Below are positions 2,057-16,313 of a stretch of DNA of 32,000 nucleotides, in pieces. The stretch spans positions 180,001-212,000 of the forward strand of contig JBAZYG010000002.1 of the NCBI GenBank assembly GCA_041659445.1. Reading direction: 5' to 3'. Position 1 is the first letter of the stretch, and every line of letters begins with the position of its first letter. This DNA is from Candidatus Saccharimonadota bacterium. Lineage in GTDB: Archaea > Nanobdellota > Nanobdellia > Pacearchaeales > GW2011-AR1. A program made the position numbers and the translations under genes. Under the pieces are notes generated by a model. It saw nothing but the letters and a program-made list of their open reading frames with translations. It searched no databases and had not been told where the DNA came from.

Positions 2057-3598
2057 TTAGGATTTTTTTGAGATATCTTTATTTTTTGAATTTCCTAAAG
2101 TTTTTTTTATCATGTAAGTTACTGGATTTTTCATTTTAATTTCTTCAGAATTTATTGAAATTCCAAGTGCTTTATAATAATCTGTATTAAAATTAGGGGG
2201 CATGATAGGTTTTCTTCGATAACTCCAAACCAATTGTGCTTGAATGTATCCTTCTTTTAACGGAGTTTCATTTTTTTTATTCCATTCAAAAATTCTTTTT
2301 TCTAGTTCAGTTTTATCCATACCAATTGACCTAAAAAAATTAAGTAAAACAAATAATCCTCGTTTTTTCCCGTCTTTTAATCCATTTAAAATATATTTTA
2401 TAGACGGTGGAAAATTATCTTCTTTGATTTCTTTTAATTGAATCGGTTTGAAGTTCGCATATTTTCCAGAAACATTTTTCTCTTCTGAAGTTCCTTTAAT
2501 TTCTCTGCTTTTAACCCAGTCCAAAGTTTGCATTACTAATTCTTTTGCTTCTTCTTCCTTGCATTCTGGAATAAAGTCTCTTATTTTTATTTTCATTGGA
2601 TCTGCATCTTTTATTTCAAAATTCTTAAATTCTTCTTCAGTTAAAACAACACTTGCCAATGCAGTTTTTTCATGTAAAGAATAAGGTGTCCTGAAAAGAT
2701 GCCTTGGTGAAACTAAAATCAAATCTAAACCCATTATTTCAAATAAATCAGATTCTTCATATGAAAGAATAAATTTCTCAGGATTTTTAAGAGAATTAAT
2801 TTTACATTTTTTGCATTCATAAATTTCTTTTAAATCTTTTTCAACAGTTTGCCTATTACATTCAGGGCACTTGTGGTTTTTTCTTTCTTCTCCTTTGATA
2901 AATCTTTTTATTTCTCCACTTTTACAAAAAGGACAATACATTTCTACTTGAATATAAATGTCTGATATTCCATTACAATTTTGACATTTTATTCCTTTTT
3001 TTATTTCAACATTTTTAAATTCCTTTTCAAAATCTTCAGGGAGATTTTCACGAAAAATTCTTTCAGAATGTTCTCTAATATAATTTATTAAATTTCTTGG
3101 AAGTTCAGGAAATAATTCTTTTGTAGGAATGCCATTAATTGATTTTGGGAAAGCTTTCCATGGAACTAAAATGTGAAATCCTTTTGAACCTGAAAATTTT
3201 ATCCCAATATTTTTTAATCCATTTCTCTTTAGTGTTTCAACAATTGCCTCTGCAGCTTTTTTTGCATAATCAAACCATTTACAATCTACATCTATTAATA
3301 AGTCCCAGCCAATCCTTAATTCATTATAATCTTTTTCAGTCATTTCTGTTGAAATTTTTAAAGGATCTTCCCAAAGTTCTTCAGAACAATTGAACGAAGT
3401 TGTTCCTCTTTTTACTAATTCATAAATATCTCCTTGATATTGCAAAGCATCAGGTCTTTTTCCAAAACTTTCAAAATATCTTGGAACTACTTCTCGGTTT
3501 TTGCAAAACTCAAAAATTGCTTTTTGTATTTCAGGCCTTGAATAATAAAGTTGAATAATACTCTTTATTCTTTTCTTTTTTAAGCTCTCTTCTTCCAT
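2057..3598 (-). CDS. priS: DNA primase: PriS-type catalytic domain with a zinc-ribbon insertion and a fused C-terminal helical domain (PriL-CTD/PriCT-like)
   Basis: Archaeo-eukaryotic primase motifs are present: DLLIDVD (acidic DxD), SGSKGFHILVPW (SGxxGxH) and RTPYSLHEKT. Four CxxC pairs lie at aa 205-265. The C-terminal FPPSIKYILNGLKDGKKRGLFVLLNFFRSIG...EWNKK resembles the PPC..L..G..R..LF helical module of PriL-CTD/PriCT. Confidence 0.8.
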   Translation of the reverse strand: MEEESLKKKRIKSIIQLYYSRPEIQKAIFEFCKNREVVPRYFESFGKRPDALQYQGDIYELVKRGTTSFNCSEELWEDPLKISTEMTEKDYNELRIGWDLLIDVDCKWFDYAKKAAEAIVETLKRNGLKNIGIKFSGSKGFHILVPWKAFPKSINGIPTKELFPELPRNLINYIREHSERIFRENLPEDFEKEFKNVEIKKGIKCQNCNGISDIYIQVEMYCPFCKSGEIKRFIKGEERKNHKCPECNRQTVEKDLKEIYECKKCKINSLKNPEKFILSYEESDLFEIMGLDLILVSPRHLFRTPYSLHEKTALASVVLTEEEFKNFEIKDADPMKIKIRDFIPECKEEEAKELVMQTLDWVKSREIKGTSEEKNVSGKYANFKPIQLKEIKEDNFPPSIKYILNGLKDGKKRGLFVLLNFFRSIGMDKTELEKRIFEWNKKNETPLKEGYIQAQLVWSYRRKPIMPPNFNTDYYKALGISINSEEIKMKNPVTYMIKKTLGNSKNKDISKKS

Positions 3599-4494: not shown

Positions 4495-5256
4495 ATGAAG
4501 AAAAGAGGGCAGGTTACAATCTTTGTTATTATTGCAATTGTAATAATTGTTTTAGGGGTTTTGGCTTTTTTTCTTTATCCAAAATTAAAAATTTCAACAG
4601 GATTTAATACTGAAAACCCAGAATTATTTTTGCAAAATTGTGTTGAAAATGATTTAGAAAATTTAATTGAAACTCTTTCTTTGCAAGGTGGAGAATTCAA
4701 TCCTCAAGGATATACTATTTATCAAGATGTTAAAATAAAATATATTTGTTATACTTCTGATTATTTTACTTTAGGTTTAAAACAAGTTCCATTCATTAAG
4801 AGATTTGTCGAGGATGAAATTAGTGTTCAGATAAAACCGAAAGTCGATGAATGCTTTGATGATTTAGTTTTAAAATATCAACAAAAAGGTTATGAAGTTA
4901 GTTCTAAAAAAGGAAATATTCAAACAGAAATTCTTCCTGAGCAAACTTCAATTGATTTAATTGGTTATAATTTAACAGTTTCTAGAGGAGAAAACGAAAA
5001 CAGATTTAATTTGTTTGTTATAAATTTGGACAATAATCTTTATGAACTTCTAAATATTGCTGAACATATAGTTAGTTGGGAAAATGAATTTGGAGACGCA
5101 GATACACTTTCGATCATGATGTTAAAAAAAGACATTCGAGTGAATAAAATATTAAGAGATGATGGTTCAAAAATTTATATAATTGAAAATAAAAAAACAA
5201 AAGAGGCATTTCAATTTGCTTCAAGAAGTTTGGTTTTCCCTGCAGGATTGTTTTAA
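4495..5256 (+). CDS. Exported hypothetical protein with a class III (type IV pilin-like) signal peptide
   Basis: N-terminus MKKRG|QVTIFVIIAIVIIVLGVLAFFLY: a basic n-region, then Gly-Gln, then an uninterrupted hydrophobic stretch of about 22 residues. It is the first gene after a TTTATAAA box at -29. Confidence 0.65.
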   Translation: MKKRGQVTIFVIIAIVIIVLGVLAFFLYPKLKISTGFNTENPELFLQNCVENDLENLIETLSLQGGEFNPQGYTIYQDVKIKYICYTSDYFTLGLKQVPFIKRFVEDEISVQIKPKVDECFDDLVLKYQQKGYEVSSKKGNIQTEILPEQTSIDLIGYNLTVSRGENENRFNLFVINLDNNLYELLNIAEHIVSWENEFGDADTLSIMMLKKDIRVNKILRDDGSKIYIIENKKTKEAFQFASRSLVFPAGLF

Positions 5257-5257
5257 A

Positions 5258-7402
5258 ATGAAAAAAAATTCAAGCAAAAAAATATTTTTTAGTATCTTTT
5301 TATTATTTGGAATAATTGTTTTTTCTTATTCTGTTCTTGCAGCAAGTGGTTGTTGTGAAAAAACAAAAGACGGTTTTTGGTGTCAAATGGTCGACGATAT
5401 TAGTTCAAAATGTGACAGTTCAAATGGGTTAACAAGTTCTCCAACATCATGTGATCAAACTGCTTATTGTTCTTTAGGAACTTGTATTAATTCTGTTACA
5501 GGAGAATGTGTTCCAAATCTTCCAAAATCAGAATGCGAAAGTGATTCTGCAGGAGAATGGGATTCAAGAACTTTACAAGAAATTCCAACTTGTCAATTGG
5601 GATGTTGTTCTTATGGTCCATATACTCAATTTGTTACACAAACAAAATGCAAACAATTAGGAACAGATTATGGTGTTGACCCTATTTTTAACGACGAGAT
5701 TACAGATGAACTTGAATGTTATAATTCAGATACTTCTTACAAAGAAGGAGCTTGTATATTCGAGAACGGAGATTGTCGACGAACTTCAAAAACAGAGTGT
5801 GATTCTCAATCAGGAAATTTTGAAGAAGGATTTTTATGCACTGCAACAAATTTAGAAACTCAATGTGCAAGAAGTTCAGAAACAATTTGTGATGAAAACG
5901 GAAGAGTTTATTTTAAAGATTCGTGTGGAAATTTAGCAAATATTTACAATGAAGAAATGTTTAGTACAAATCCAAATGCTTGGAATTCTGAAATGAAAGA
6001 TTATTGGACTTATATAAAAGAAATAGATGATTCTTCAATTTGTTCTTTTACTGGAACTACTTCTTCAACTTGCGGAAATTGTGATTTTTTATCAGGAAGT
6101 GTTTGTTCAAAATATAGATTAAACGATCCTACAATGCCTAATTCAAAACCAGAGTTTGGAAATTATGTTTGTGCAAGTATGGATTGTGCTTATGATACTG
6201 ATAGAAATGGTGAAAGAGAAATTTATCATCACGGAGAATCTTGGTGTGCAATGACAGAAGGAACTTACTGGGACCAAAATGCATATGAAGAATTTGGATT
6301 AGGTGGAATTAGAATAAATAAAACAACAGGTGATTATGTTGAAGCTAAAATTTTAAAAGAACTTGAAAATCAATCTAATTATAATCTTCCAGGAAGTCAA
6401 TATGTTTTATTAAAATGTATCGACGGAGAAGTTCTTCAAGAATCATGTATGTCTTACAGAAATTCTTTTTGCGTCGATGTTGTTTCTCATGAATCTGAAT
6501 TTAGAGAAGCACATTGTATTGGAAATGATTGGAGAGCTTGTCTTTCAAAAACAACTAAAAAAACTTGTGAAGGCGATTCTATTTATGGAACTCAAATGTG
6601 TAAATGGGTTGGAGGTTTTAGACTCGACGGAAAATCAACAACAACAAAAGAATCAAACAGGCAAAATATTGACCAAGGTTCTTGTGTTCCTTTATTATCT
6701 CCTGGATTAGAATTTTGGACAGATAAAAATAACGCAGAATGTTCTTTAGGAAATATTCAAGGTTCTGTAACTTATGCAACTTCATGGACAGTTAAAAGAG
6801 ACCATTTTGCAGAATTTGGAACAAAGTCTGCTTCTGAAACTTGTATGAATGATTGTTATCTTATTCCAGGTTATGCAAGTGATTTAGCTGGAAGTGATTT
6901 ACAAGACCAAAAAGCAATGGAAAATATTTATACAGGAGGAGATGTTCCAAGTGGAGATTTAAAAGATTATATGGTTTCACTTAGAAAAGCTTATTATTGT
7001 GAGGGAAAAACAGGAAAAGCATCTGGACCATCAGTTAGTTGTTCTGGTGAACCTGATAAAAGAAATAATTTTCCAGTTTATTGGACACATCAAGAATTTT
7101 ATGATTCAATTACAGAAAGAGCTCGTTCATTAGGAGATTGTGGTTACAAAGCAGGAGCTTATATTTCATTAAGTGAAATGAACGAGAGTAATGTTGAATT
7201 AGAATTAATGACTGTAGTATTTCAAAAAATATCTCAAGAAGGAGATGTAAAAGATGAAGATAAAGGAAATCTTGCTGAAAAAATTTATATTAATAACGAA
7301 TATGTTGGTGACCAATGCGGTTATAGAAGTGGAGAATACGACGAGGAATTATGCCAATTAGAAAACATTCCATTAGAAGAATCAACTGACGGAGAAGAAT
7401 AA
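5258..7402 (+). CDS. Large secreted cysteine-rich protein (about 714 aa)
   Basis: Start moved to the ATG at 5258 (MKKNSSKKIFFSIFLLFGIIVFSYSVLAASG..., a classical signal peptide), 1 nt after the upstream stop at a TAAAATG junction. I count about 44 Cys. No TM segment follows the signal peptide. The C-terminus is acidic. Confidence 0.7.
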   Translation: MKKNSSKKIFFSIFLLFGIIVFSYSVLAASGCCEKTKDGFWCQMVDDISSKCDSSNGLTSSPTSCDQTAYCSLGTCINSVTGECVPNLPKSECESDSAGEWDSRTLQEIPTCQLGCCSYGPYTQFVTQTKCKQLGTDYGVDPIFNDEITDELECYNSDTSYKEGACIFENGDCRRTSKTECDSQSGNFEEGFLCTATNLETQCARSSETICDENGRVYFKDSCGNLANIYNEEMFSTNPNAWNSEMKDYWTYIKEIDDSSICSFTGTTSSTCGNCDFLSGSVCSKYRLNDPTMPNSKPEFGNYVCASMDCAYDTDRNGEREIYHHGESWCAMTEGTYWDQNAYEEFGLGGIRINKTTGDYVEAKILKELENQSNYNLPGSQYVLLKCIDGEVLQESCMSYRNSFCVDVVSHESEFREAHCIGNDWRACLSKTTKKTCEGDSIYGTQMCKWVGGFRLDGKSTTTKESNRQNIDQGSCVPLLSPGLEFWTDKNNAECSLGNIQGSVTYATSWTVKRDHFAEFGTKSASETCMNDCYLIPGYASDLAGSDLQDQKAMENIYTGGDVPSGDLKDYMVSLRKAYYCEGKTGKASGPSVSCSGEPDKRNNFPVYWTHQEFYDSITERARSLGDCGYKAGAYISLSEMNESNVELELMTVVFQKISQEGDVKDEDKGNLAEKIYINNEYVGDQCGYRSGEYDEELCQLENIPLEESTDGEE

Positions 7403-7408
7403 ATAAAA

Positions 7409-9925
7409 ATGAATAAAATAATAAAAACAAAAAATTCAAAACAAAAAACATTTTCATTAATAGAATCTCTGATTTTGATAATTGCAATTTTTGCATTTGC
7501 CTGGATGATTGGCTCTGAATTTAAAACAGTAAGTGCTGCGACTTGTGTCCAAGGTCCAATAGGTAATGGTCTTCAAGAATGTTCTAATGAAGGAGACTTG
7601 GCCTGTGATAATAATCAAGATGTGGGGGCTATACTTGAATGTATTCAACCAACATCGGGTATAGCAGGAGTAGATCCTAATAAATTATATTGGAATGGTT
7701 ATGCCTTGTGTGATGATAATGAAATTTGTTCAAATTGCGAATGTGCTCCTATTGAAGAAGAAACTCCAGTTATTGATGAACCAGAAGTAGAAGTGCCTGA
7801 AGAAGAAAGCGGAGAATCTAATCCTAATGGATTAAAAAGTTGGGAAACTGCTCTTATTGGAGATATAACTGGAATAGTTCTAGAAAAAGGTAGCGAGTTA
7901 TTATTTAGTTCTGGAAGAGCAGGAACAACTGGAGGTGAAGCAGCAGCGCAAACAGGAACAGAAGTTGCAAGCGGAAGTAGTAGTGGTTTTTTAGATTCAT
8001 TTATAGGAGTTCTTGGAAAAGGGGGGGAATCTGTAGCAGGAAGTATTGGGGGAGCAATCGGCTCTTCATTAGGTGTTATTGCAATGGCTTGGGCAGCATA
8101 TAGTGGAATAGTTTATTTTTTAGATGCAATGGGCGTTGCTTGGGAAAATTATCATACTCTTGAACAAACTGCACTTTACACTACTATTGGAGTTTCAGCA
8201 TTGGGTGTTATTTACGGAGTTCTTCTTTATGTAGGTATTTTAGCAACAATTCCCGGAGCAGGTTGGATTGCAGCAGCAATAATTATTGTTGTAACTGCAA
8301 TTGTAGCAGCTTTTACATATCAAGATTTTTCACTTGAAACTTTTACTTATATTGTTCAACCATGGAAAGCTCCTTATGGAGGAGAAAGATGTGAAAAATG
8401 TAATAAATTAGATTATGGATGCAATGAATATCAATGTCATTCTTTTGGTGCTGCTTGTGGAATTGTAAACAAAGGAACACAAGATGAAAAATGTGCATGG
8501 TTAAATCCCGACGACCATTTATCTCCAGATATTACTTTAAATCAACAAGTTTTAGATGAACAAGATTTAAAATCAAAACCACTTGATATTACTCTTCCAA
8601 GTTCAGAAAAAGGTTTTGAAATATTACCTAAATCAGGAGAAGAATGCATCGCATCTTTTACAGAGGTAAAAATTGGTTTAATTACAAATGAATTAGCAGA
8701 ATGTAAATTTGATTTAAATCGTTCAAAAGAATATAACAATATGTTAAGCTACATGGAAGAAGGAAATTCATTAATTTATAATCACACATTAATCATACCT
8801 GCTGCAGGAGCACCAAGTACATCTGCTTTAGAAAATTTAGGAATTGAATTAGAAAACGGATTACCAAAGTATTTATTATATTTCAAATGTCGAGATATGA
8901 ATGAAAATACAAACAATGCGGATTTTATAATTCAATTTTGTATTGAAGAAGGTCCAGATACTCATGCACCTGTTATTAAAGGAACAAGTGTTACAAATCC
9001 AGCGTATATTTCTAATAATCAAACTTCTGCAGAAATAGAAGTTTACACAAATGAACCTGCAGATTGCAAATGGGATTTTGAAGATACAAGCTATGATAGA
9101 ATGACTTATAATATGACTGATTGTTCTTCACAACTTCAAGATTATTTAGTAGGATATAATTATGGATGCAAAGTAAATTTAACAGGAATTAAAAAAGAGC
9201 AACAAAATAAATATTATTTTAGATGTAAAGACCAACCTTGGTTAAGCACAGATGAAGAACATTTAAGAAATCCAAGTGGACAATCTTATGTTCAAATTTT
9301 AACTGGAACATCAAGCTTATTAATTGATTCTTTAAAAGTAAATGATAAAGACAAAGGTTCAATAATAAAAGATTCAACATCACCAGTTCAAGTTAGATTA
9401 GTTGCAAAAACTTCAAATGGTGCAGAAGAAGGAAAAGCAAAATGTAAATATTCTTTTGATGGTTTTGAAGATTGGTTTACAAATGGCGGACAATTCTGGC
9501 AAGGAACAGATGGATTCAGAGTTGAAAATTATCAAGATTTATTTTTAGATGCAGGAAATTATAATATTTCAGTAACGTGTTTTGATATTGGTGGAAATGT
9601 TGCATATGATTCTATTGAATTCAGTGTTGAACAAGATCTTCAAGCACCAATAATAACAAGAGCTTATTTTGAAGAAGGATATTTGAAATTAATTACAGAT
9701 GAAGAATCATCATGTGTTTACTCTTTGTTTAATGAAGGATGCAATTATTTATTTGTCGACGGAAATGAAATATCAACAACAGATGGAATTAATCACCTTG
9801 TTGAATGGAGCACAGAAGCAGAAATGTACATAAAATGTAAAGATGAATATGGAAATCTTCCAGAATCTGGACAATGTTCAATTCAAATTTTAAACTCTGA
9901 AAATTTTGAAGAAGAAAGTAATTAA
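7409..9925 (+). CDS. 838-aa multidomain surface/membrane protein: pilin-like N-terminus, Cys-rich module, acidic linker, Gly-rich multi-TM block and four Ig-like repeats
   Basis: The N-terminus KQKT|FSLIESLILIIAIFAFAWMIG resembles the prepilin FTLIE motif. A Cys-rich module spans aa 46-112, an acidic linker aa 115-135, and Gly/Ala/Ser-rich hydrophobic helices aa ~215-305. Four ~100-aa repeats each contain xCK[FWY]... and ...[FIT]xC[KRF]D. Confidence 0.7.
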   Translation: MNKIIKTKNSKQKTFSLIESLILIIAIFAFAWMIGSEFKTVSAATCVQGPIGNGLQECSNEGDLACDNNQDVGAILECIQPTSGIAGVDPNKLYWNGYALCDDNEICSNCECAPIEEETPVIDEPEVEVPEEESGESNPNGLKSWETALIGDITGIVLEKGSELLFSSGRAGTTGGEAAAQTGTEVASGSSSGFLDSFIGVLGKGGESVAGSIGGAIGSSLGVIAMAWAAYSGIVYFLDAMGVAWENYHTLEQTALYTTIGVSALGVIYGVLLYVGILATIPGAGWIAAAIIIVVTAIVAAFTYQDFSLETFTYIVQPWKAPYGGERCEKCNKLDYGCNEYQCHSFGAACGIVNKGTQDEKCAWLNPDDHLSPDITLNQQVLDEQDLKSKPLDITLPSSEKGFEILPKSGEECIASFTEVKIGLITNELAECKFDLNRSKEYNNMLSYMEEGNSLIYNHTLIIPAAGAPSTSALENLGIELENGLPKYLLYFKCRDMNENTNNADFIIQFCIEEGPDTHAPVIKGTSVTNPAYISNNQTSAEIEVYTNEPADCKWDFEDTSYDRMTYNMTDCSSQLQDYLVGYNYGCKVNLTGIKKEQQNKYYFRCKDQPWLSTDEEHLRNPSGQSYVQILTGTSSLLIDSLKVNDKDKGSIIKDSTSPVQVRLVAKTSNGAEEGKAKCKYSFDGFEDWFTNGGQFWQGTDGFRVENYQDLFLDAGNYNISVTCFDIGGNVAYDSIEFSVEQDLQAPIITRAYFEEGYLKLITDEESSCVYSLFNEGCNYLFVDGNEISTTDGINHLVEWSTEAEMYIKCKDEYGNLPESGQCSIQILNSENFEEESN
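8621..9898 (+). repeat. Four tandem ~100-aa protein-level repeats in the C-terminal half of the 838-aa protein
   Basis: Each unit carries a paired-Cys pattern: AECKFD...YFKCRD, ADCKWD...YFRCKD, AKCKYS...SVTCFD, SSCVYS...YIKCKD. Confidence 0.6.
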
Positions 9926-9959: not shown

Positions 9960-10493
9960 ATGGTTAAAAAAAATAATTCTTGGTTATTATGGGTTGTTTT
10001 AATCGTCGCTGTTGTTGCAATAATTTTAAGTGCAATTGCAATTTCTAAATCTAATAATATAACAGGAAATAGTATTTTTGATTTTTTTAAAAAATCCTCA
10101 ATTTCAACAAATACTCAAACTCAATCTAAAGGTTTGTTAGCTGATGCGTATTTAGCTTCAGGAAAAAGTTCTGAATCTTTGAAAAATTATGAAGCAGTTT
10201 ATGATGAAAACGGAGAATTAATTTATGAATTGCTTGATGATGCAACTTATTTTAATATTGGAAATACGTATGAACTAATTGAAGATAATAATGGTGTTTT
10301 TCTTAAGTCAAAAATTACAGGATTAATGGTTCCAGGACCAGATCCCGCAGATTGTAAACCAAGATGTACTACAAATGATATATGTACACCCAATGGGCTT
10401 TATTGTAATACTCCTATAACATGTAAAGAAACACAAAAAAAGAATCATTGTCGTTGGCCTAGTAAATTAGGGGGAGAAAGTTCAATAGATTAA
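9960..10493 (+). CDS. Membrane-anchored or secreted small protein with a Cys-rich C-terminus
   Basis: N-terminal hydrophobic helix MVKKNNSWLLWVVLIVAVVAIILSAIAI. C-terminal six-Cys segment CKPRCTTNDICTPNGLYCNTPITCKETQKKNHC. A GGAGGT Shine-Dalgarno lies 9 nt upstream. A T-rich terminator follows. Confidence 0.65.
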   Translation: MVKKNNSWLLWVVLIVAVVAIILSAIAISKSNNITGNSIFDFFKKSSISTNTQTQSKGLLADAYLASGKSSESLKNYEAVYDENGELIYELLDDATYFNIGNTYELIEDNNGVFLKSKITGLMVPGPDPADCKPRCTTNDICTPNGLYCNTPITCKETQKKNHCRWPSKLGGESSID

Positions 10494-10564: not shown

Positions 10565-11041
10565 ATGAAGAATAAAAGAGGTTATTTAGAAATTTCTTTT
10601 GGAATGATTTTTACAATTATTTTAATTATTGCATTTATTGCATTTGCATTTTATGCAATTCAAAAATTCATTTTTTTTCAAAAAGATTCTCAATATAGAT
10701 TATTCCTAGAAGATTTTAAATCAGACGTGGATAAAATGTGGAAAACAACTTCAGGTTCACAAGAAGTTAGTTATAGATTACCAAGCTCAATAAAACAAGT
10801 TTGTATTACTCGTAGTTGTTCTGATTTAGGTTTTGAATATAATTGTTATTCACCAGATGATAATTTAGTTTTCAATAGTTCTAAAAATAATTTTGAAAGC
10901 ACTTATATTTCAAATTTAGATATTGAAAAGATTTTAGGAAGTAAAAAAGTTTATTGCTTTGATGTAATTGATAATCAAGTTTCAATGACTTTGATTAAAG
11001 AATATAATTCTGATAAAGTTTTGGTTTTAAAAATAAAATGA
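10565..11041 (+). CDS. Exported hypothetical protein with a class III (pilin-like) signal peptide
   Basis: N-terminus MKNKRG|YLEISFGMIFTIILIIAFIAFAFYAI. It shares K[RK]GYLEISF with the next gene. A TTTATAAG box lies at -29. Confidence 0.65.
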   Translation: MKNKRGYLEISFGMIFTIILIIAFIAFAFYAIQKFIFFQKDSQYRLFLEDFKSDVDKMWKTTSGSQEVSYRLPSSIKQVCITRSCSDLGFEYNCYSPDDNLVFNSSKNNFESTYISNLDIEKILGSKKVYCFDVIDNQVSMTLIKEYNSDKVLVLKIK

Positions 11042-12000
11042 AAATAAAATCTTTGAAAAAAAACAAGAAAGGTTATTTGGAAATTTCTTTTTCCTGGATT
11101 TTTGCTTTTATCGTCGGAGCATTTATTTTATTTCTAGCTATTTTTGCAGTAACAAAATTAATCAAAACAGAATCAACAAGTTCAGATGTTGAAACTTCAA
11201 GACAAATCGAAGTTTTATTAAGTCCTCTTGAAACTTCTTTTGAAGAAGGAAAATTAACAACCCTTTCAACATCAGTTGATTCAAGAATTTTTTCAACATG
11301 TTCAGCGTCAGGAGATTTTGGTAAGCAAACTATTTCTGTAAATCAAAAAGTTTATGGAAAATGGTCAGACACAAATACTGAAATAGAATTTGAAAATAAG
11401 TATTTGTTTTTAGATAAAAATAATGAAGGGAAAATATTTTATTTATTTTCAAAACCTTTTGATTTTGATTTCAAAGTAGCAAGTTTAATTTATTTAATTC
11501 CTTTAGAGAAAAAATATTGTTTTAAAGGAGATATCCCTGAAGAGATTTCAGAAGAATTAGAGCAAATAAATCCTCCTAATGTTTTTGTCGAGGATTCAGA
11601 TAATGATTGTTCTGGAAATGAAATCCAAGTTTGCTTTGGAAATCCTGATGAAAGTTGTGAAATTTCTGTTGATGTTTTTGAATATGCTGTTATAAAAGAA
11701 AATAAAAGAGTTTATTATGAAAACAATAATGCATTATTGTATTCTGCAATTTTTTCAAGTCCTGAATTTTATGAATGTCAAGTTAAGAGAATTATGTTAA
11801 GAGCAAATTCATTAGCAAGCTTATATAAAGATAAATTGTTTTTACCTTCTTTAATAAATTGCAATCCTGAATTAGTATCTGAATTGTCTTATTTTCAAAA
11901 TGTGTTAAGTAATTATGAAGATTCAAATGATTTAGCTTCTGTTTTTTCAAGTGCAGAAGAACTTCAATATAAGAATAATGCGAGGTGTGAAGCATGGTAA
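11038..12000 (+). CDS. Exported hypothetical protein with a class III (pilin-like) signal peptide; N-terminal paralogue of the previous gene
   Basis: N-terminus MKIKSLKKNKKG|YLEISFSWIFAFIVGAFILFLAIFAV. ATGA start/stop overlap with the upstream gene. The ectodomain contains about 9 Cys. Confidence 0.65.
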   Translation: MKIKSLKKNKKGYLEISFSWIFAFIVGAFILFLAIFAVTKLIKTESTSSDVETSRQIEVLLSPLETSFEEGKLTTLSTSVDSRIFSTCSASGDFGKQTISVNQKVYGKWSDTNTEIEFENKYLFLDKNNEGKIFYLFSKPFDFDFKVASLIYLIPLEKKYCFKGDIPEEISEELEQINPPNVFVEDSDNDCSGNEIQVCFGNPDESCEISVDVFEYAVIKENKRVYYENNNALLYSAIFSSPEFYECQVKRIMLRANSLASLYKDKLFLPSLINCNPELVSELSYFQNVLSNYEDSNDLASVFSSAEELQYKNNARCEAW

Positions 12001-12587
12001 AAAAAATTTCAAATTCACGAAAAGCTCAAAACATAAAATCAAAGATTTTGTTAGTTTCGTTTTTTCCGTCGAAAAAAGCTCAAATGAAAATTCAACAAAC
12101 AGCGATAATATTACTAGCAATAACTTTATTATTTGTGTTGGTTGCTTTATTTTTTCTTTCTTTCAAAATTCAAAATTTAAAAAAAGATGCAAATCTAGCA
12201 TCTGAAAAAGATGCAATAATTTTGTCTTCTAAACTTTCTGAAAGCCCTGAATTTTCTTGTCAGCAAGCATTTGGAAACAAAAGAGTTAATTGCATTGATT
12301 CAGATAAATTAATGGCATTAATTGAAAATTCAGACAAATATTCGAATTTTTTCGGAGTTTCAAATATTGAAGTTATTAAAATTCAAGATAAAGAAGAGCT
12401 TTTAACAAAATGCACAGACGCAAATTATCCTAATTGCAATCATTTTTCAGTTTTTGATTCAAACAATTCAGGTTTTAGTTACACTAGTTTTGTTTCGTTG
12501 TGTAGAAAAGTAAACTATCAAGATATTTATTTTTATGACAAATGTGAATTATCTAAATTAATAATAAGTTATGAAAAAATAAGTTAA
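11994..12587 (+). CDS. Exported hypothetical protein with a class III-like signal (KKAQ|MKIQQTAIILLAITLLFVLVALFF)
   Basis: ATGGTAA overlap with the upstream stop. The hydrophobic helix follows KKAQ. A degenerate earlier copy (RKAQNIKSKILLVSFF) precedes it, so the start could instead be the internal ATG. The ectodomain contains 6 Cys. Confidence 0.55.
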   Translation: MVKKISNSRKAQNIKSKILLVSFFPSKKAQMKIQQTAIILLAITLLFVLVALFFLSFKIQNLKKDANLASEKDAIILSSKLSESPEFSCQQAFGNKRVNCIDSDKLMALIENSDKYSNFFGVSNIEVIKIQDKEELLTKCTDANYPNCNHFSVFDSNNSGFSYTSFVSLCRKVNYQDIYFYDKCELSKLIISYEKIS

Positions 12588-12594
12588 AATTTTA

Positions 12595-12682
12595 AAAAAC
12601 AACAAAATGAAAAATAAAAAACTCAAATTAAAATTTGGTAAGTTTCATTTTTCATAAAAACAACAAAATGAAAAACAAAAAA
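12595..12682 (+). repeat. 27-nt direct repeat (one mismatch, 61-nt offset) duplicating the start-codon region of the gene at 12668
   Basis: AAAAACAACAAAATGAAAAA[T/C]AAAAAA occurs at 12595-12621 and 12656-12682. The first copy opens a 16-codon ORF (MKNKKLKLKFGKFHFS*). Confidence 0.6.
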
Positions 12683-13174
12683 GCACAAGAAGAAATGATT
12701 GGATTTGCTTTAATCTTAGTTATAATCGGAGTTATAATTTTGGTTTTTTTCACAATCTCTATTAAAAATAAAACAACTGTTGAAGAAAGTTATGTGACAG
12801 ACAATTTTATTCAAGCTTTGTTACAACATTCAACAGACTGTGCAGAAAACTATGAAACAGATTATTTAGATTTTAGAAGATTGATAAATAAATGTGCAAA
12901 TAGTGGAACAGGAAAATGTTTTCAATCAAGTTGGACATATTGTGAATCTTTAGAAAAAAATTTGAACAGTACTTTAAAGAATTCATGGCAAATTAGTTCA
13001 GATAGTTATTACAAAGCCTATGTTTTGAAAATAAATAATAAAGGAAATGAATTATTAACTATATATGATAGTGCGAATAAAACTGAATTAACTGATGTAA
13101 AAAGTCAATTTAATTCTAAAGGTTCTGTTCAAAATTTAGGGGAAATTGATATTTATTTAGATGTTTATTATTAA
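12668..13174 (+). CDS. Exported hypothetical protein with a class III (pilin-like) signal peptide
   Basis: Start set at the ATG at 12668 (MKNKKA|QEEMIGFALILVIIGVIILVFF) rather than the non-ATG start at 12635 in the track. The ectodomain contains 4 Cys. Confidence 0.6.
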   Translation: MKNKKAQEEMIGFALILVIIGVIILVFFTISIKNKTTVEESYVTDNFIQALLQHSTDCAENYETDYLDFRRLINKCANSGTGKCFQSSWTYCESLEKNLNSTLKNSWQISSDSYYKAYVLKINNKGNELLTIYDSANKTELTDVKSQFNSKGSVQNLGEIDIYLDVYY

Positions 13175-13524
13175 ATTTTAAAACTTATATTTAAAGTATC
13201 CACTGCTAATTCTGGTCTGTGTCTTATTCTTTTTTTTGTTTTTTCTTGTACAAAATCAACAAAACCAAATCTTTCAAGTAATTTAACATCATCAAAAACA
13301 GATTTAAATGGCCTGTTAAGAAGTTTGGCTAATTCATAAATTGATTTTGGTTTTTTGTTTTTTATTACATCTAAAATCCTTGCTTTTTCATTGTTTAAAA
13401 CTTGTCTTAGGGCAGAAATTCCTTCAAAATTATAATCTTTTTTTGAAAATTTTTGTTTGTAAAACACAGAAAAAGTTCCTTTATTTTCTTTTATTTCTAT
13501 TTCACGTGTTTTTGATTTTGACAT
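13171..13524 (-). CDS. Small winged helix-turn-helix transcriptional regulator (family not resolved)
   Basis: 117 aa. The segment SIYELAKLLNRPFKSVFDDVKLLERFGFVDFVQEK looks like an HTH recognition helix plus wing. It is divergent from the S-layer-like gene. Its stop overlaps the convergent upstream stop (TTAA at 13171-13174). Confidence 0.6.
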   Translation of the reverse strand: MSKSKTREIEIKENKGTFSVFYKQKFSKKDYNFEGISALRQVLNNEKARILDVIKNKKPKSIYELAKLLNRPFKSVFDDVKLLERFGFVDFVQEKTKKRIRHRPELAVDTLNISFKI

Positions 13525-13913: not shown

Positions 13914-16313
13914 ATGAAAAACGTTTTTAAGAAGATTGTTGCTATTAGTGCTAGTGTATTAATGACTGGCTTCACTGCAGGTATTGCAGCAGCAGCAAGT
14001 TTTCCAGCTCCATTCGTTCAAAGCGGTGTAGCTGACGTAGCTATTGTTTATGGTACAGGTACTGGTGTTTCTTCAGTTGATTTTACTCACGCTGGAAACA
14101 TCCAAACAACTTTGGGTGAATCTATGCCAAGTACAGGAGGAACTCCTGTAGGTGGTGAATCATATAAATTTGAAAAAACATCTACTAAATTCCATTTAGG
14201 TGATAACTTCACAACACTTAGAGAAACATTAACAGATGATCATTTACCTGTTCTATTAGGAGATGGTATCTATGTTGATGATGATAATGATGAATTCGAT
14301 TATACTCAAAAAATCGAAATGAATGCATCAGTATTATCTATGTTCTCTGATAGTGATTATGATGACAGTGCACCTACAGTTGGATTTAGAATAGCTTCAG
14401 GATATAATGTCTTGAACTATACAGTTACTTTTGTTGACCAACCACTTATGTCTGATTTAGTTACTTCAACTTTACCTATAATGGGTAAAGAGTACTATGT
14501 TTTATCAAACAGTACAAGCGGAGCTAATAATATTTTAACATTATTAGATTCAGCTGATAGTGCTATTGTATCAGATGCAGAAGGAGATAGTATAACACTT
14601 ACTGCTGGTGGGAAAACTTATGTTGTTACTGTTCCTTATATAAGTTCAACAGAGGTGAAATTATCAATTAATGGAGAAACTACTAACACATTAAACGAAG
14701 CTGAAACTCAAAAATTATCTGATGGTTCATACGTTGGTATTAGAGATATCATGTATAACGCTCACGATACTGGAGTAAGCCAAGTAGAGTTTAGTATAGG
14801 ATCTGGTAAATTAAAAATTACAAGTGGTTCTGAAATCCAAATTAATGATAATATCATAAACGGTATTACTGCTGTAATAACAAATAGTAGTGCAGCTGCA
14901 ACAACACTTACAAGTATTGAACTTGAGTGGAAGACTGATGATGATACATTCATCACAGAAGGTAGTGAAATTACAATGCCAGGATTTGGAATTGTAAAAC
15001 TATCTTACACTGGACTTACTTTCCCTACAGAAGAGGAATTCACTGTTGAGCAAGGTTCAGATACCTACATAATGCTTAACGACTTCCCAGTTAAAGATGG
15101 AACTATAGATATTCCATTATTATACGGAAGTGCAGGTGGTCCTTACTCTGGTTTAGGTAAAGATGCAACTAACAAATTAGTTACAAGCAATATTACTGGT
15201 TCATCTGTTCCTTTAAAATTCGATAAAGATACTGATGAAATGTTTGTTGTTACTTATGAAACTACAACAGAATGTGAGTCATATGTATTAAAGGCTACAT
15301 CATTCGGAGTAGATACTGCAAATAACAATCAAACAACTATTCAAAGGTGGAAAGACGGAGCATGGACAGATGAAAGAGATGTAAAAGCAACAGATACTTT
15401 CTCAATTGGTAGTGCAGAGTTAGGTGTTCAATATGTTGAAAGATCACCAGGTAATTTTGTAAATATTACTTCAAACAGTTCAAGTACTAAGTTTAACATA
15501 CTTTGTTCTGATAAAGGATTAAAGTTATGGTTGCCTTGGACATATACTGCTGGTTCTATTAACATGAGTTATAAAACAGGAGCAATTAACTTGACTGCAA
15601 TGGGAGATGCCTCTGAAAACTATTCTGCTGGTTTCAATGGTACTAATTGGTATCTTCAAATGCAAGAAGAAGATAAAGATGGAAATATTGCAGCTGGAGA
15701 TCAATGGAATATCTCATTAGGTTGGGATAGTTCAACTACTGCTGAACCACAAGTCTCTGACTTGAGAGGAGAAGATGTAACTGCTGTTAAACTTGACTCT
15801 GATAGTACTGACTATAGAAGCTTCATGTATTCTGCTCTCGCAACAGAATTCATATGGCATCAACCTAGTTCAGACCAAGATAGTATAGATATACTATATC
15901 ACGGAGATGAAGTTGCTGCAGATGTTTATATTACATCACCAGAAGCTACTACTACTGGAACAAGTTCATTAGGAAATGTTCTTGTAAAAGATAGCGAAGT
16001 TGCTAGCGTACAATCAAAGAACTTAATCGTTGTTGGTGGAAGTTGTATTAACTCAGTTGCTGCTAATTTAGTTGGTGGTAGCTATTGTGGTCCAAGTTTC
16101 ACAACTGCAACAGGTGTTGGAGCAGGACAATTCTTAATCCAAAGTTACGGCGATGCCTATACTACTGGAAAAGTTGCTCTATTAGTTGCTGGTTACAACG
16201 TTGATGATACTGCTAACGGTGCTACATACTTGAGAACAAAGACTGTAGATACAACTGCTGGTAAGAAGTACATTGGTACATCTTCAACAGAAGCTACACT
16301 TCAAGTTGCTTAA
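13914..16313 (+). CDS. S-layer-like major surface protein
   Basis: Signal peptide MKNVFKKIVAISASVLMTGFTAGIAAAA. The N-terminal FPAPFVQSGVADVAIVYGTG...VD..AGNI and C-terminal NLIVVGGSCINSVAANLV...GKVALLVAGYNVDDTANGATYL resemble the paired N/C modules of archaeal S-layer proteins. It is Thr/Ser/Gly-rich with many N-x-S/T sequons. Codon usage differs from neighbouring genes. A strong oligo-T tract lies downstream. Confidence 0.7.
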   Translation: MKNVFKKIVAISASVLMTGFTAGIAAAASFPAPFVQSGVADVAIVYGTGTGVSSVDFTHAGNIQTTLGESMPSTGGTPVGGESYKFEKTSTKFHLGDNFTTLRETLTDDHLPVLLGDGIYVDDDNDEFDYTQKIEMNASVLSMFSDSDYDDSAPTVGFRIASGYNVLNYTVTFVDQPLMSDLVTSTLPIMGKEYYVLSNSTSGANNILTLLDSADSAIVSDAEGDSITLTAGGKTYVVTVPYISSTEVKLSINGETTNTLNEAETQKLSDGSYVGIRDIMYNAHDTGVSQVEFSIGSGKLKITSGSEIQINDNIINGITAVITNSSAAATTLTSIELEWKTDDDTFITEGSEITMPGFGIVKLSYTGLTFPTEEEFTVEQGSDTYIMLNDFPVKDGTIDIPLLYGSAGGPYSGLGKDATNKLVTSNITGSSVPLKFDKDTDEMFVVTYETTTECESYVLKATSFGVDTANNNQTTIQRWKDGAWTDERDVKATDTFSIGSAELGVQYVERSPGNFVNITSNSSSTKFNILCSDKGLKLWLPWTYTAGSINMSYKTGAINLTAMGDASENYSAGFNGTNWYLQMQEEDKDGNIAAGDQWNISLGWDSSTTAEPQVSDLRGEDVTAVKLDSDSTDYRSFMYSALATEFIWHQPSSDQDSIDILYHGDEVAADVYITSPEATTTGTSSLGNVLVKDSEVASVQSKNLIVVGGSCINSVAANLVGGSYCGPSFTTATGVGAGQFLIQSYGDAYTTGKVALLVAGYNVDDTANGATYLRTKTVDTTAGKKYIGTSSTEATLQVA

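What the first reader, a model, noticed from the sequence alone, without database searches (positions are those of the whole stretch)
7409..9925. 838-aa mosaic protein: FTLIE-like prepilin N-terminus, Cys knob, acidic linker, Gly-rich multi-TM block and four paired-Cys Ig-like repeats
This domain order is unusual for a single polypeptide. (i) KQKT|FSLIESLILIIAIFAFAW resembles the bacterial-type G|FTLIE prepilin motif, with Glu at +5 but Thr at -1. (ii) A Cys-rich module spans aa 46-112. (iii) An acidic spacer reads PIEEETPVIDEPEVEVPEEESGE. (iv) A Gly/Ser/Ala-rich region runs into three or four hydrophobic helices at aa ~215-305, visible in the DNA as a GC-richer patch at about 7900-8330. (v) A CxxC-rich segment and four ~100-aa repeats follow, each with the xCK[FWY]x...[FY]xC[KR]D pattern. 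A pilin-like leader on a protein that also has internal TM helices implies either a membrane-embedded base or tip component, or a processed polyprotein.
Basis: partly seen in the sequence, partly recalled or inferred. Interest (0 to 1): 0.7.

Follow-up and report, generated by a model that had tools for sequence, protein, structure and literature searches.

The report
Conserved DPANN archaeal surface-complex core protein
This gene encodes an unannotated but very widespread cell-surface protein of Woese-/Pacearchaeota (tiny symbiotic archaea) that is always co-encoded with a cysteine-rich partner and five pilin-like proteins; it is a good candidate part of their unknown envelope or attachment apparatus, but it is not itself a pilin.

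Summary

**What it belongs to**
- It is part of a large, wholly unannotated family. An exhaustive profile search found 2813 cluster representatives.
- Relatives occur in 509 GTDB species genomes. The 80 best loci are almost all labelled Woese-/Pace-/Nanoarchaeota.

**What was confirmed or corrected**
- The C-terminal 520 aa are a 6-Cys knot plus four Ig-like beta-sandwiches (pLDDT >90), with all 20 Cys invariant.
- The 'FSLIE' N-terminus is not a prepilin site. No conserved Gly/Ala sits at -1, and a V-x-[ASG] signal-peptidase-I-type motif lies about 24 residues downstream in 90 of 106 relatives.
- Five neighbouring genes do carry conserved [KR][GA]|Q class III motifs.
- Gene order is conserved in 71-92% of eligible loci: pilin-like, Cys-rich protein U2, target, then four pilin-likes.

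**Two new tests place both flanks of the hydrophobic block outside the cell**
- N-X-S/T sequons are under sequon-specific selection: domain 4 has 6 observed versus 42 expected, and the N-domain 8 versus 108. Cytoplasmic controls are neutral.
- An unpaired Cys316 in the target co-occurs with an odd Cys count in U2, which implies a disulfide-linked complex.

The number of membrane spans (0 or 2) and the function remain unresolved. An adhesin or envelope scaffold is the most likely function.

The parts
7409..9925 (+). Target ORF, 838 aa
   Evidence: identical protein P0001 on a 62.7-kb JGI contig
7409..7537 (+). N-terminal Lys-rich n-region, conserved hydrophobic helix (Q/E19) and V41-S42-A43 site: Sec-type signal peptide, predicted to be cleaved before A44 (retention as an anchor not excluded)
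   Evidence: AF2 helix 12-37
7538..7744 (+). Variable N-terminal ectodomain: 8-Cys knob (aa 44-112)
   Evidence: family N-domains have 12% mean identity, an even Cys count in 109/110, and 8 sequons observed vs 108 expected
7748..7816 (+). Acidic Pro/Glu spacer (aa 114-136)
   Evidence: pLDDT <50
7817..8035 (+). Gly/Ser/Ala-rich flexible tether (aa 137-209) with the conserved aromatic pair F194-L195 (W/F-F/L in 82% of the family) and G205
   Evidence: 1 sequon observed vs 44 expected
8036..8131 (+). Helix A of the hydrophobic block (aa 210-241), marginal TM (dG +1.9)
8141..8233 (+). Helix B (aa 245-275); hydrophobic here (dG 0.0), amphipathic with Lys266 in most of the family
8258..8317 (+). 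Helix C (aa 284-303), the only family-wide canonical hydrophobic helix (dG -1.9 here)
8318..8503 (+). Juxtamembrane strand (position 316 is Val here, an unpaired Cys in 81/110 relatives) plus the invariant W319-x4-GG-x2-CxxC 6-Cys knot (aa 304-365)
8504..8953 (+). Ig-like domain 1 (aa 366-515), 4 invariant Cys, conserved sequons N458 (94/110), N478, N441, N437
8954..9316 (+). Ig-like domain 2 (aa 516-636), 4 invariant Cys, sequons N537, N568, N590
9317..9640 (+). Ig-like domain 3 (aa 637-744), 2 invariant Cys, sequon N645 (66/110)
9641..9922 (+). Ig-like domain 4 (aa 745-838), 4 invariant Cys, strongly sequon-avoiding (6 observed vs 41.9 expected): probable partner-binding tip
5258..7402 (+). 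U2: secreted ~44-Cys protein whose stop lies 6 nt before the target ATG; inferred complex partner
   Evidence: (91% of eligible loci)
4495..5256 (+). U1: pilin-like protein, KRG|QVTIF class III motif
   Evidence: 92%; 47/54
10565..11041 (+). A: pilin-like protein (KRG|YLEISF; orthologues KG|QMKLSFGMIF)
   Evidence: 44/59
11038..12000 (+). B: large pilin-like protein, 8 invariant ectodomain Cys
   Evidence: 52/55
11994..12587 (+). C: pilin-like protein (KKA|QMKIQQ)
   Evidence: 45/53
12635..13174 (+). D: pilin-like protein (KKA|QEEMIGF), sequon-enriched
   Evidence: 34/49
13171..13524 (-). HVO_A0114-family winged-helix regulator, syntenic
   Evidence: 72%
13914..16313 (+). S-layer-like protein (S_layer_C), syntenic
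   Evidence: 76%

Best explanation
The ORF encodes the conserved core subunit of a cell-surface module specific to Woese-/Pacearchaeota.

**Proposed pathway and layout (inferred)**
1. The protein is exported by Sec using an N-terminal signal that ends in V-S-A43.
2. A fast-evolving, disulfide-bonded N-terminal knob hangs on a disordered acidic plus Gly/Ser tether of about 100 residues.
3. A Gly/Ala-rich three-helix hydrophobic block holds the protein at the membrane with both flanks outside. In this protein that is most likely a helical hairpin of two spans plus one interfacial helix.
4. From the block rises a 6-Cys knot and a rigid stalk of four disulfide-bonded Ig-like domains. Domains 1-3 carry conserved N-glycosylation sequons. 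The distal domain 4 and the N-knob are kept sequon-free, as interaction surfaces would be.

**Partners (inferred)**
- The protein works in a complex with U2, the Cys-rich secreted protein encoded immediately upstream.
- In most lineages the link is covalent, through Cys316 next to the membrane. In this lineage it would be non-covalent.
- It also works with the five co-encoded type-IV-pilin-like proteins.

**Most likely role (inferred)**
An envelope-anchored adhesion or scaffold complex. The conserved stalk binds conserved partners (U2, the pilin-likes, possibly the S-layer encoded 4 kb downstream). The variable knob recognises the outside target.

**Shown versus inferred**
- Shown: family size, fold, Cys and sequon patterns, synteny, Cys-parity coupling.
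- Inferred: signal cleavage, number of spans, physical complex, function.
For: **Family.** The exhaustive profile search gave 2813 representatives at E<=1e-3 and 1400 at E<=1e-30. All names given by sources are 'hypothetical protein' from Nanoarchaeota or Pacearchaeota. 509 GTDB species genomes carry a relative.

**Fold.** aa 320-835 have pLDDT >90. There are four beta-sandwiches, and Foldseek hits Ig/FN3/cadherin ectodomains at E 7e-14. Weak Big_13 matches occur in 23/44 members.

**Both flanks are extracellular.**
- All 20 C-region Cys are invariant, at equivalent positions in all four domains.
- The N-domain Cys count is even in 109/110. Individual relatives carry LysM or He_PIG in the N-domain.
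- Sequons were tested against a null that preserves each column's composition. D4 has 6 observed vs 41.9 expected, while the reversed motif has 83 vs 80.7. D1-D3 mix sites of excess (N437, N441, N478, N568, N649, N719) with sites of avoidance (N500, N530, N698).
- The N-domain has 8 observed vs 108 expected, with the reversed motif at 99 vs 106. Cytoplasmic controls are neutral: PCNA 45/43 and primase 42/43.

**Complex with U2.**
- Target Cys316 has no covarying partner within the protein.
- Loci with C316 have U2 with an odd Cys count in 29/36. Loci without C316 have an even count in 14/17 (Fisher p 3.6e-5).
- The other five secreted neighbours have an even count in >95% of loci.
- U2 Cys ~502 and ~622 are present in 36/36 vs 0/18 loci, and Cys ~581 in 0/36 vs 17/18.
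- A 6-nt gap separates the two genes here, and they overlap in other loci.

**Module.** Share of eligible loci with each neighbour: U1 92%, U2 91%, A-D 71-77%, regulator 72%, S-layer 76%. Class III motifs occur in 69-95% of U1 and A-D orthologues.

**Context from papers.**
- Archaeal T4P loci typically hold five or more minor pilins, large adhesins and S-layer-like genes, often apart from the ATPase (PMC4858521).
- Pacearchaeota are strongly host-attached, with pili-like appendages (PMC7906910).
Against: **Helix count and topology.**
- AlphaFold gives three helices in the block, an odd number.
- Across the family only helix C is a canonical TM. Mean dG in the major subfamily is A +3.8, B +6.0, C +1.8.
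- In the major subfamily the segment after helix C is Lys-rich, about 2.9 K/R in 14 aa. That favours a type-I topology with the Ig array inside.
- Two minimal paralogues (P0089, P0241) read: Lys-rich N-terminus, TM, 25 aa, TM, Ig array. Naively this is also C-in.
- No sequons occur in the A-B turn (0 vs 5.7) or the B-C loop (0 vs 6.1). This hints that no part of the block faces the cytoplasm, so zero spans may be the case rather than two.

**Limits of the new tests.**
- The Cys-parity coupling follows one clade split: every sequence's nearest neighbour has the same C316 status, 110/110. It may therefore reflect a single evolutionary event.
- Reading the sequon statistics this way assumes these organisms N-glycosylate. 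AglB was not checked in these genomes.

**Missing pieces.**
- No T4P ATPase, TadC or prepilin peptidase lies within the window or 10 kb either side.
- No structural or sequence match informs function.
Confidence: 0.5

Rival explanations
1. S-layer anchor or pillar (SlaB-like role). The membrane-held stalk of four Ig-like domains spans the pseudo-periplasm, and its sequon-free tip (D4) holds the S-layer protein encoded downstream. The pilin-likes would act like FlaF/FlaG-type S-layer binders. This is a functional sub-case of the best explanation.
For: - An S_layer_C protein without any TM anchor lies 4 kb downstream and is syntenic in 76% of eligible loci.
- The family is present in 509 species genomes, sometimes in two copies per genome or contig.
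- Four Ig domains plus the knot would make roughly 15-18 nm by generic Ig-domain dimensions. This was not measured here.
- Ig-like proteins with a TM helix are the proposed S-layer anchors in another DPANN archaeon (bioRxiv 10.1101/2023.10.27.564410).
Against: - SlaB-type anchors use a C-terminal TM helix and have no hypervariable second ectodomain.
- A divergently oriented regulator separates the S-layer gene from the module.
- Nothing here tests binding.
- The tight coupling is to U2 and the pilin-likes, not to the S-layer gene.
Confidence: 0.2
2. Type-I receptor-like membrane protein. The layout would be a signal peptide, a variable ectodomain, an extracellular amphipathic A-B hairpin, a single TM (helix C), and then a conserved cytoplasmic region of a Zn-binding CxxC knuckle plus four beta-sandwiches.
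For: - AF2 gives a three-helix bundle, and only helix C is a family-wide TM.
- The motif 'YKK' follows helix C in 81/110 relatives.
- The minimal paralogues have a two-TM layout.
- The block loops avoid sequons, as extracellular segments would.
- C-x2-C...C-x4-C could bind zinc.
Against: - Sequon-specific selection acts within the Ig array: D4 has 6 vs 41.9, and D1-D3 show site-specific excess. Cytoplasmic controls are neutral.
- Invariant Cys pairs sit at equivalent positions in all four domains.
- Unpaired C316 is coupled to an odd Cys count in the secreted protein U2.
- The matching Pfam families (Big_13, Y_Y_Y, DUF4625) are, to my knowledge, typical of extracytoplasmic proteins.
Confidence: 0.12
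3. One reading: a prepilin-peptidase-processed pilus base or tip subunit, or a polyprotein that is cleaved internally.
For: - F15-S-L-I-E19 mimics F1-T-L-I-E5, and Q/E is conserved at that position in 96/106 relatives.
- The N-terminal helix has 33% mean pairwise identity, against 12% for the N-domain and 23% for the helical block.
- Five real pilin-like genes flank the ORF.
Against: - There is no conserved Gly/Ala at -1 (Thr in this protein), and 56/96 relatives lack any nearby [KR]G.
- A conserved V-x-A site follows the helix.
- No conserved internal cleavage motif was seen.
- The two halves are never found as separate genes among the ~250 relatives inspected, apart from paralogues that simply lack the N-domain.
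Confidence: 0.07

Closest known systems
Archaeal type IV pilus-associated loci with minor pilins plus large secreted 'adhesin'/S-layer-like proteins (Makarova, Koonin & Albers 2016, PMC4858521)
   Same: - A cluster of five class-III-signal proteins with large Cys-rich secreted proteins and an adjacent S-layer-like gene.
- The pilin loci are often separate from the ATPase/TadC genes.
- Conserved Cys are interpreted as disulfides.
   Different: - No ATPase, TadC or peptidase lies in or near this locus.
- The large protein is not DUF2341/PilY-like.
- It carries an internal three-helix hydrophobic block between two ectodomains.
- The family is restricted to Woese-/Pacearchaeota.
Bacterial minor-pilin/PilY1 tip complex (FimU-PilVWX-PilY1) and the T2SS GspH-I-J-K pseudopilus tip
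   Same: - Four small pilin-like genes, one of them large (~305-320 aa), sit next to a protein of ~800 aa.
- That protein has a Sec signal, a variable N-terminal part and a conserved C-terminal part.
   Different: - The resemblance is by analogy only, recalled from knowledge of those systems.
- There is no sequence or fold relationship: PilY1 ends in a beta-propeller, whereas this protein has Ig-like domains and a hydrophobic block.
SlaB-type S-layer anchors and the proposed DPANN anchors (Ig-like folds plus a TM helix; bioRxiv 10.1101/2023.10.27.564410)
   Same: - A signal peptide, a stack of glycosylated beta-sandwich domains and a membrane attachment.
- Genomic proximity to the S-layer gene.
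   Different: - The anchor is internal, not C-terminal.
- There is no coiled coil.
- There is an additional hypervariable N-terminal ectodomain.
- No sequence similarity was detected.
Bacterial Ig-like domain family Big_13 (PF19077) and relatives (Y_Y_Y, DUF4625)
   Same: - A beta-sandwich repeat ending in a D-x-x-G-N-type motif.
- Weak matches in 23/44 members (best E 2e-6).
   Different: - No Pfam family matched the window protein at E <= 0.01, and the family-wide best match is only E 2e-6.
- The invariant Cys pair in each domain is a feature of this family.

Membership tests
Type IV prepilin / archaeal class III signal peptide protein | [KR]-[G/A] at -2/-1 directly before the hydrophobic helix (prepilin peptidase site) | tested here: not met
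   The window protein has K13-T14|F15. 56/96 relatives have no [KR]G within 14 residues, and spacing varies from +3 to +12 in the rest. A motif scan finds it in 29/84 with a random +1 residue, against 69-95% with +1 = Q (Y/F in family B) in the neighbouring families.
Type IV prepilin / archaeal class III signal peptide protein | The hydrophobic N-terminal helix continues into the globular pilin domain, with no signal-peptidase-I site | tested here: not met
   V-x-[A/G/S] lies 22-24 residues after the Q/E in 90/106 relatives (A 60, G 19, S 11 at -1). It is followed by an unrelated variable domain.
Type IV prepilin / archaeal class III signal peptide protein | Conserved polar or acidic residue near position +5 of the helix | tested here: inconclusive
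   Q (68) or E (28) is conserved at the start of the helix. Without a defined cleavage site the register is undefined.
VirB6/TrbL or PilC/GspF/TadC platform proteins | Sequence or fold match of the multi-helix block to those families | tested here: not met
   There is no Pfam or NCBIfam hit. Foldseek of the block model (pLDDT 78) against the PDB gave a best E of 1.6, with only generic three-helix bundles.
Bacterial Ig-like domain Big_13 (PF19077) | Score above the Pfam gathering threshold | tested here: not met
   The window protein has no hit at E<=0.01. 23/44 relatives hit weakly, with a best E of 2e-6.
Ig-like beta-sandwich repeat surface proteins (fold class) | Tandem beta-sandwich domains | tested here: met
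   AF2 gives four all-beta domains with pLDDT >90. Foldseek hits Ig/FN3/cadherin arrays at E 7e-14 to 1e-9.
Ig-like beta-sandwich repeat surface proteins (fold class) | Extracytoplasmic location | tested here: inconclusive
   Supported by Cys invariance, sequon selection and U2 Cys parity. Contradicted by the naive helix count and the minimal paralogues. No dedicated topology predictor was available.
SlaB-like S-layer anchor | C-terminal TM helix and binding to the S-layer lattice protein | not testable with these tools
   There is no C-terminal TM helix: the protein ends ...NFEEESN. Binding cannot be computed here because no multimer prediction was available.
Sec/SPase I secreted protein | Positively charged n-region, h-region, and small residues at -3/-1 | tested here: met
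   There are 5 Lys in aa 1-13, an h-region at aa 15-35, and V41-S42-A43|A44. The pattern is conserved family-wide. SignalP was not available, so cleavage itself is inferred.

The most novel reading that the evidence does not exclude
The Gly/Ala-rich three-helix block may not span the producer's own membrane at all. In most of the family none of its helices is a confident TM, and no part of it shows the sequon-neutral signature of a cytoplasmic loop. On this reading the protein is held on the cell by its conserved N-terminal helix and/or by the pilin-like/U2 complex. The block would then be a deployable membrane-insertion element, comparable in composition to viral fusion peptides or toxin helical hairpins. 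It would enter the host membrane and so form part of the long-sought contact or bridge apparatus of Woese-/Pacearchaeota.
Probability: 0.1. Interest if true: 0.85.

Novelty: new variant of a known kind. Interest (0 to 1): 0.55.

Why it matters
Woese- and Pacearchaeota are among the most abundant uncultured DPANN archaea. They are thought to live attached to hosts, and Pacearchaeota are the most strongly attached DPANN lineage in groundwater, with pili-like appendages (PMC7906910). No envelope or attachment component of theirs has been defined.

This gene is the centre of a seven-gene module: five pilin-likes, a ~44-Cys secreted protein and this protein. The family occurs in at least 509 species genomes, the module order is conserved across the 84 loci examined, and every source name for the family is 'hypothetical protein'.

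The analysis gives concrete, testable predictions:
- a disulfide-linked U2-target pair through Cys316;
- glycosylation at N458, N537, N590 and N645;
- sequon-free interaction surfaces at D4 and the N-knob;
- a hypervariable recognition domain.

The two sequence-only tests may also be useful elsewhere for uncultured archaea. One infers which side of the membrane a segment faces from sequon selection measured against a null that preserves each column's composition. The other detects intermolecular disulfides from coupled Cys parity.

Tried and rejected
- **Word-index homology searches with the full-length protein or full-length alignment** found only 3 proteins, apparently because low-complexity words filled the candidate list. 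A C-terminal-only alignment fixed this.
- **Pfam, NCBIfam and PDB sequence searches** of the target, of pilin-like B and of U2 gave nothing usable.
- **Foldseek of the full model** against PDB and BFVD returned only generic Ig/FN3 arrays.
- **Foldseek of the helical block plus knot** gave nothing significant. The VirB6/TrbL and PilC ideas were rejected on this basis.
- **BLAST self-comparison** did not detect the four repeats.
- **Positive-inside charge counts** are contradictory between the two subfamilies and were not used as decisive evidence.
- **E222-K266 and E19-K266 residue associations** were not corrected for phylogeny and are treated only as hints.
- **Sequon depletion of the Cys knot** (18 vs 57) is matched by the control motifs, so it was dropped as evidence.
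- **Whole-region shuffles** were replaced by local shuffles and a column-preserving null after concern about shared ancestry.
- **Search for T4P machinery** found none in the window or in 10 kb on each side.
- **Literature search** for 'pacearchaeosortase' or for this module found nothing.
- **Pfam scan of the 44 longest relatives** for informative N-domain modules gave only single LysM, He_PIG and EF-hand hits.


Full report
**Organism and observation**

The window has 28% GC and encodes PCNA, an archaeal primase, FtsZ, an S_layer_C protein and a pacearchaeosortase (NF033505, E 7.5e-67). It therefore comes from a Pacearchaeota-like DPANN archaeon.

The ORF at 7409..9925 (+) encodes 838 aa.
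- a Lys-rich N-terminus followed by FSLIES-LILIIAIFAFAW;
- eight Cys between aa 46 and 112;
- the acidic spacer at aa 114-136;
- a Gly/Ser/Ala-rich stretch running into hydrophobic helices;
- a CxxC-containing 6-Cys segment at aa 328-362;
- four modules that each carry a Cys pair in the xCK[FWY] ... [FY]xC[KR]D pattern.

The GC-richer patch is real: 0.397 for nt 7900-8330, against 0.321 for the gene and 0.279 for the window. It reflects Gly and Ala codons.

**Family**

Pfam, NCBIfam and PDB sequence searches find nothing for this protein. Word-index searches with the whole protein were swamped by low-complexity words and returned only three proteins.

An exhaustive profile search of 1.84 billion cluster representatives found 2813 relatives at E<=1e-3 and 1400 at E<=1e-30. 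The conserved core runs from the last hydrophobic helix to the C-terminus.

A search with a C-terminal alignment returned 225 clusters. Every name given by a source is 'hypothetical protein', from Nanoarchaeota or Pacearchaeota MAGs. A scan of one genome per GTDB species found relatives in 509 genomes. The 80 best loci are labelled Woese-, Pace- or Nanoarchaeota or simply archaeon, apart from two records labelled as bacteria that are probably mis-binned.

Mean pairwise identity differs sharply by region:

| Region | Mean pairwise identity |
|---|---|
| C-terminal region | 46% |
| N-terminal helix | 33% |
| Helical block | 23% |
| N-terminal domain | 12% |

The N-terminal domain ranges from 21 to 272 aa in the main alignment, and to more than 1100 aa in outliers.

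**Structure**

AlphaFold2 with 110 homologues gives pLDDT >90 for aa 320-835: a small Cys knot followed by four all-beta domains. It gives helices at 12-37, 215-240, 245-274 and 284-303, and low confidence for aa 38-215.

Foldseek against the PDB and against viral models returns only generic tandem Ig/FN3/cadherin arrays, with E down to 7e-14.

A separate model of aa 186-372 (pLDDT 78, up to 93 in the first two helices) shows an antiparallel three-helix bundle. It has no significant PDB match (best E 1.6). In particular it does not match VirB6/TrbL or PilC/GspF-type platforms.

**The N-terminus is not a prepilin leader**

The family shares a characteristic N-terminus across 106 relatives with a hydrophobic N-terminus:
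- a Lys/Arg-rich n-region;
- a Q (68) or E (28) at the start of the helix;
- a well-conserved helix;
- V-x-[A/G/S] 22-24 residues later in 90 of 106.

A [KR]G occurs upstream in only 40 of 96, at spacings from +3 to +12. The window protein has Thr at -1. A formal class III motif scan finds the motif in 35% of target orthologues, with no consistent +1 residue.

The same scan gives very different results for the neighbours:

| Family | Orthologues with class III motif | Usual +1 residue |
|---|---|---|
| U1 | 87% | Q |
| A | 75% | Q |
| B | 95% | Y/F |
| C | 85% | Q |
| D | 69% | Q |
| S-layer protein | 0% | none |

The target therefore looks like a Sec/signal-peptidase-I substrate with predicted cleavage V41-S42-A43|A44. 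SignalP was not available, and the unusual conservation of the helix leaves retention as an anchor open.

**Genomic context**

Across 84 loci, the window's neighbours recur in fixed order and orientation. The order is: U1 (pilin-like), U2 (secreted protein with ~44 Cys), target, A, B, C, D (pilin-like), an HVO_A0114-type regulator on the opposite strand, the S-layer protein, two small membrane proteins, and the pacearchaeosortase.

| Neighbour | Eligible loci with a homologue |
|---|---|
| U1 | 92% |
| U2 | 91% |
| A, B, C, D | 71-77% |
| Regulator | 72% |
| S-layer protein | 76% |
| Two small membrane proteins | 64-66% |
| Pacearchaeosortase | 50% |

These are lower bounds, because they rest on single-sequence phmmer searches.

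The class III motifs of U1 and A-D are conserved across orthologues, for example KG|QMKLSFGMIF, K[GA]|QLKIQQMAF and K[GA]|QEEM[IV]GF. U2 stops 6 nt before the target's ATG, and the two genes overlap in other loci.

No secretion ATPase, TadC or prepilin peptidase lies in the window or within 10 kb on either side. This fits the published census of archaeal type IV pilus loci. Those loci often hold five or more minor pilins, large adhesins and S-layer-like genes, and the pilin sets are frequently separate from the ATPase/TadC genes (PMC4858521).

**Which side of the membrane?**

This was the hardest question, and the evidence conflicts.

Simple hydrophobicity arguments favour an odd number of spans, with the Ig array inside:
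- AlphaFold gives three helices.
- Family-wide, only helix C is a canonical TM.

| Helix | Major subfamily, mean Hessa dG | This protein |
|---|---|---|
| A | +3.8 | +1.9 |
| B | +6.0 | 0.0 |
| C | +1.8 | -1.9 |

- The segment after helix C is Lys-rich in the major subfamily.
- Two minimal paralogues read: Lys-rich N-terminus, TM, 25 aa, TM, Ig array.

Three independent sequence-evolution arguments say that both flanks are outside.

1. *Cysteines.* All 20 Cys of the C-terminal region are invariant in 110 sequences, at equivalent positions in all four domains. The Cys count of the unalignable N-domain is even in 109 of 110.

2. *N-X-S/T sequons are under sequon-specific selection.*
   - Against a null that preserves each column's composition, domain 4 has 6 sequons where 41.9 are expected. 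The reversed motif has 83 against 80.7.
   - Domains 1-3 contain sites where N and S/T co-occur far more often than expected (N437, N441, N478, N568, N649, N719, plus the near-fixed N458). They also contain sites where the two avoid each other (N500, N502, N505, N530, N698).
   - The N-domain has 8 sequons against ~108 expected, with the reversed motif at 99 against 106.
   - U2, U1, A, B and C are depleted 2.4- to 3.4-fold.
   - D, T1, T2 and the S-layer protein are enriched.
   - The cytoplasmic controls are neutral: PCNA 45/43 and primase 42/43.

3. *Cys316.* It lies 12 residues after helix C, is present in 81 of 110 relatives, and has no covarying partner within the protein.
   - Loci whose target has C316 have U2 with an odd Cys count in 29 of 36 cases. 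Loci without it have an even count in 14 of 17 (p = 3.6e-5).
   - U1 and A-D are even in more than 95% of loci regardless.
   - In U2, Cys ~502 and ~622 are present in 36/36 against 0/18 loci, and Cys ~581 in 0/36 against 17/18.

The simplest reading is an intermolecular disulfide between secreted U2 and target C316. That puts the post-helix-C segment outside. The window protein belongs to the clade without C316 (Val316, and U2 with 44 Cys). The split follows one clade boundary, so it may be a single event. Even so, two proteins turning odd together, in a setting where odd counts run at about 3%, is informative.

I conclude that both the N-domain and the Ig array are extracellular (about 85% confidence). 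The block must then cross the membrane an even number of times.

For this protein, a hairpin of helices B and C around the tight T-I-P-G-A-G turn, with helix A interfacial, fits best. However, there are no sequons in the A-B turn (0 vs 5.7) or the B-C loop (0 vs 6.1). The block's helices are also weak TM candidates in the major subfamily. Zero spans therefore remains possible.

**Mechanism proposed**

The shown elements are the fold, the conservation pattern, the synteny, the sequon selection and the Cys-parity coupling. The inferred model has four parts:
- The protein is exported by Sec.
- It is held at the membrane by the helical block, and perhaps by its N-terminal helix.
- It presents a rigid, partly glycosylated stalk of four Ig-like domains. 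The sequon-free tip (D4) and the membrane-proximal segment bind conserved partners: U2, the pilin-likes, and possibly the S-layer.
- It displays a hypervariable disulfide knob on a flexible tether of about 100 residues.

Single relatives carry LysM, He_PIG or EF-hand modules in the N-domain. That is consistent with a binding role.

The overall logic resembles minor-pilin plus large-adhesin sets of type IV pili. It also resembles Ig-like S-layer anchors proposed in other DPANN (bioRxiv 10.1101/2023.10.27.564410). Membership in either is not shown.

**Novelty and interest**

The building blocks are ordinary: a Sec signal, Ig-like repeats and pilin-like neighbours.

Several things have, as far as my searches show, not been described:
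- the family itself;
- its internal hydrophobic block between two ectodomains;
- the seven-gene module;
- the inferred covalent U2 partnership.

Pacearchaeota are reported to be unusually firmly host-attached, with pili-like appendages (PMC7906910). A universal, lineage-specific surface module is therefore a worthwhile target.

I rate it a new variant of a known kind, with interest 0.55. The most novel reading not excluded is that the Gly/Ala-rich block is a deployable host-membrane insertion element. I give that about 10%.

Noticed in passing
window 17724-18269 (-) and 19354-20985 (-): A pacearchaeosortase (NF033505, E 7.5e-67) lies next to a 543-aa secreted protein. That protein's C-terminus reads ...NWKLGG-IILLNLILVIAIIIVAV-RVYRR, a motif/TM/basic-tail arrangement typical of a sortase sorting signal. 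It is a candidate cognate substrate.
   Followed up: partly
window 4495-7402 and 10565-13174; orthologues in L001-L084: The secreted proteins of this module split into two groups. U1, U2, A, B and C strongly avoid sequons (2.4- to 3.4-fold depleted). D, T1, T2 and the S-layer protein are sequon-enriched. Archaeal pilins are usually heavily glycosylated, so avoidance in four of the five pilin-likes is unexpected.
   Followed up: partly
window 9960-10493 (+): A 177-aa N-terminally anchored protein with a 6-Cys C-terminal knot is inserted between the target and pilin-like A. A homologue was found in only 1 of 84 related loci, and not at this position, so the insertion appears to be lineage-specific.
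   Followed up: partly
L087:1090-2937 (P0089) and P0241: These are minimal paralogues that lack the N-domain and helices A and B. They read: Lys-rich N-terminus, TM, ~25 aa carrying a sequon, a very hydrophobic TM, then the Ig array. They keep the conserved sequon positions (N458, N568, N590), yet their naive topology puts the array inside. This is unexplained.
   Followed up: partly
L087 (whole locus) and L003:2940-12286: The pilin-like/Cys-rich/(target) module is tandemly duplicated in some genomes. One MAG carries the family on two contigs (L008 and L015).
   Followed up: no
window 2057-3598 (-): A single 513-aa ORF has weak matches to both the small (PF01896) and large (PF04104) primase subunits. 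It may be a fused PriS-PriL primase.
   Followed up: no
L006 and L007 (GTDB records JBDGRJ010000075.1, DAITPU010000003.1): These contigs carry this archaeal family but sit in genomes labelled 'Candidatus Paceibacteria bacterium' and 'bacterium'. They are probably mis-binned or mislabelled DPANN contigs.
   Followed up: no
window 7290-7496 (-), 7457-7648 (-), 8542-8739 (-): Short antisense ORFs (63-68 aa) overlap the target gene. They are AT-rich reading-frame artefacts with no support.
   Followed up: no
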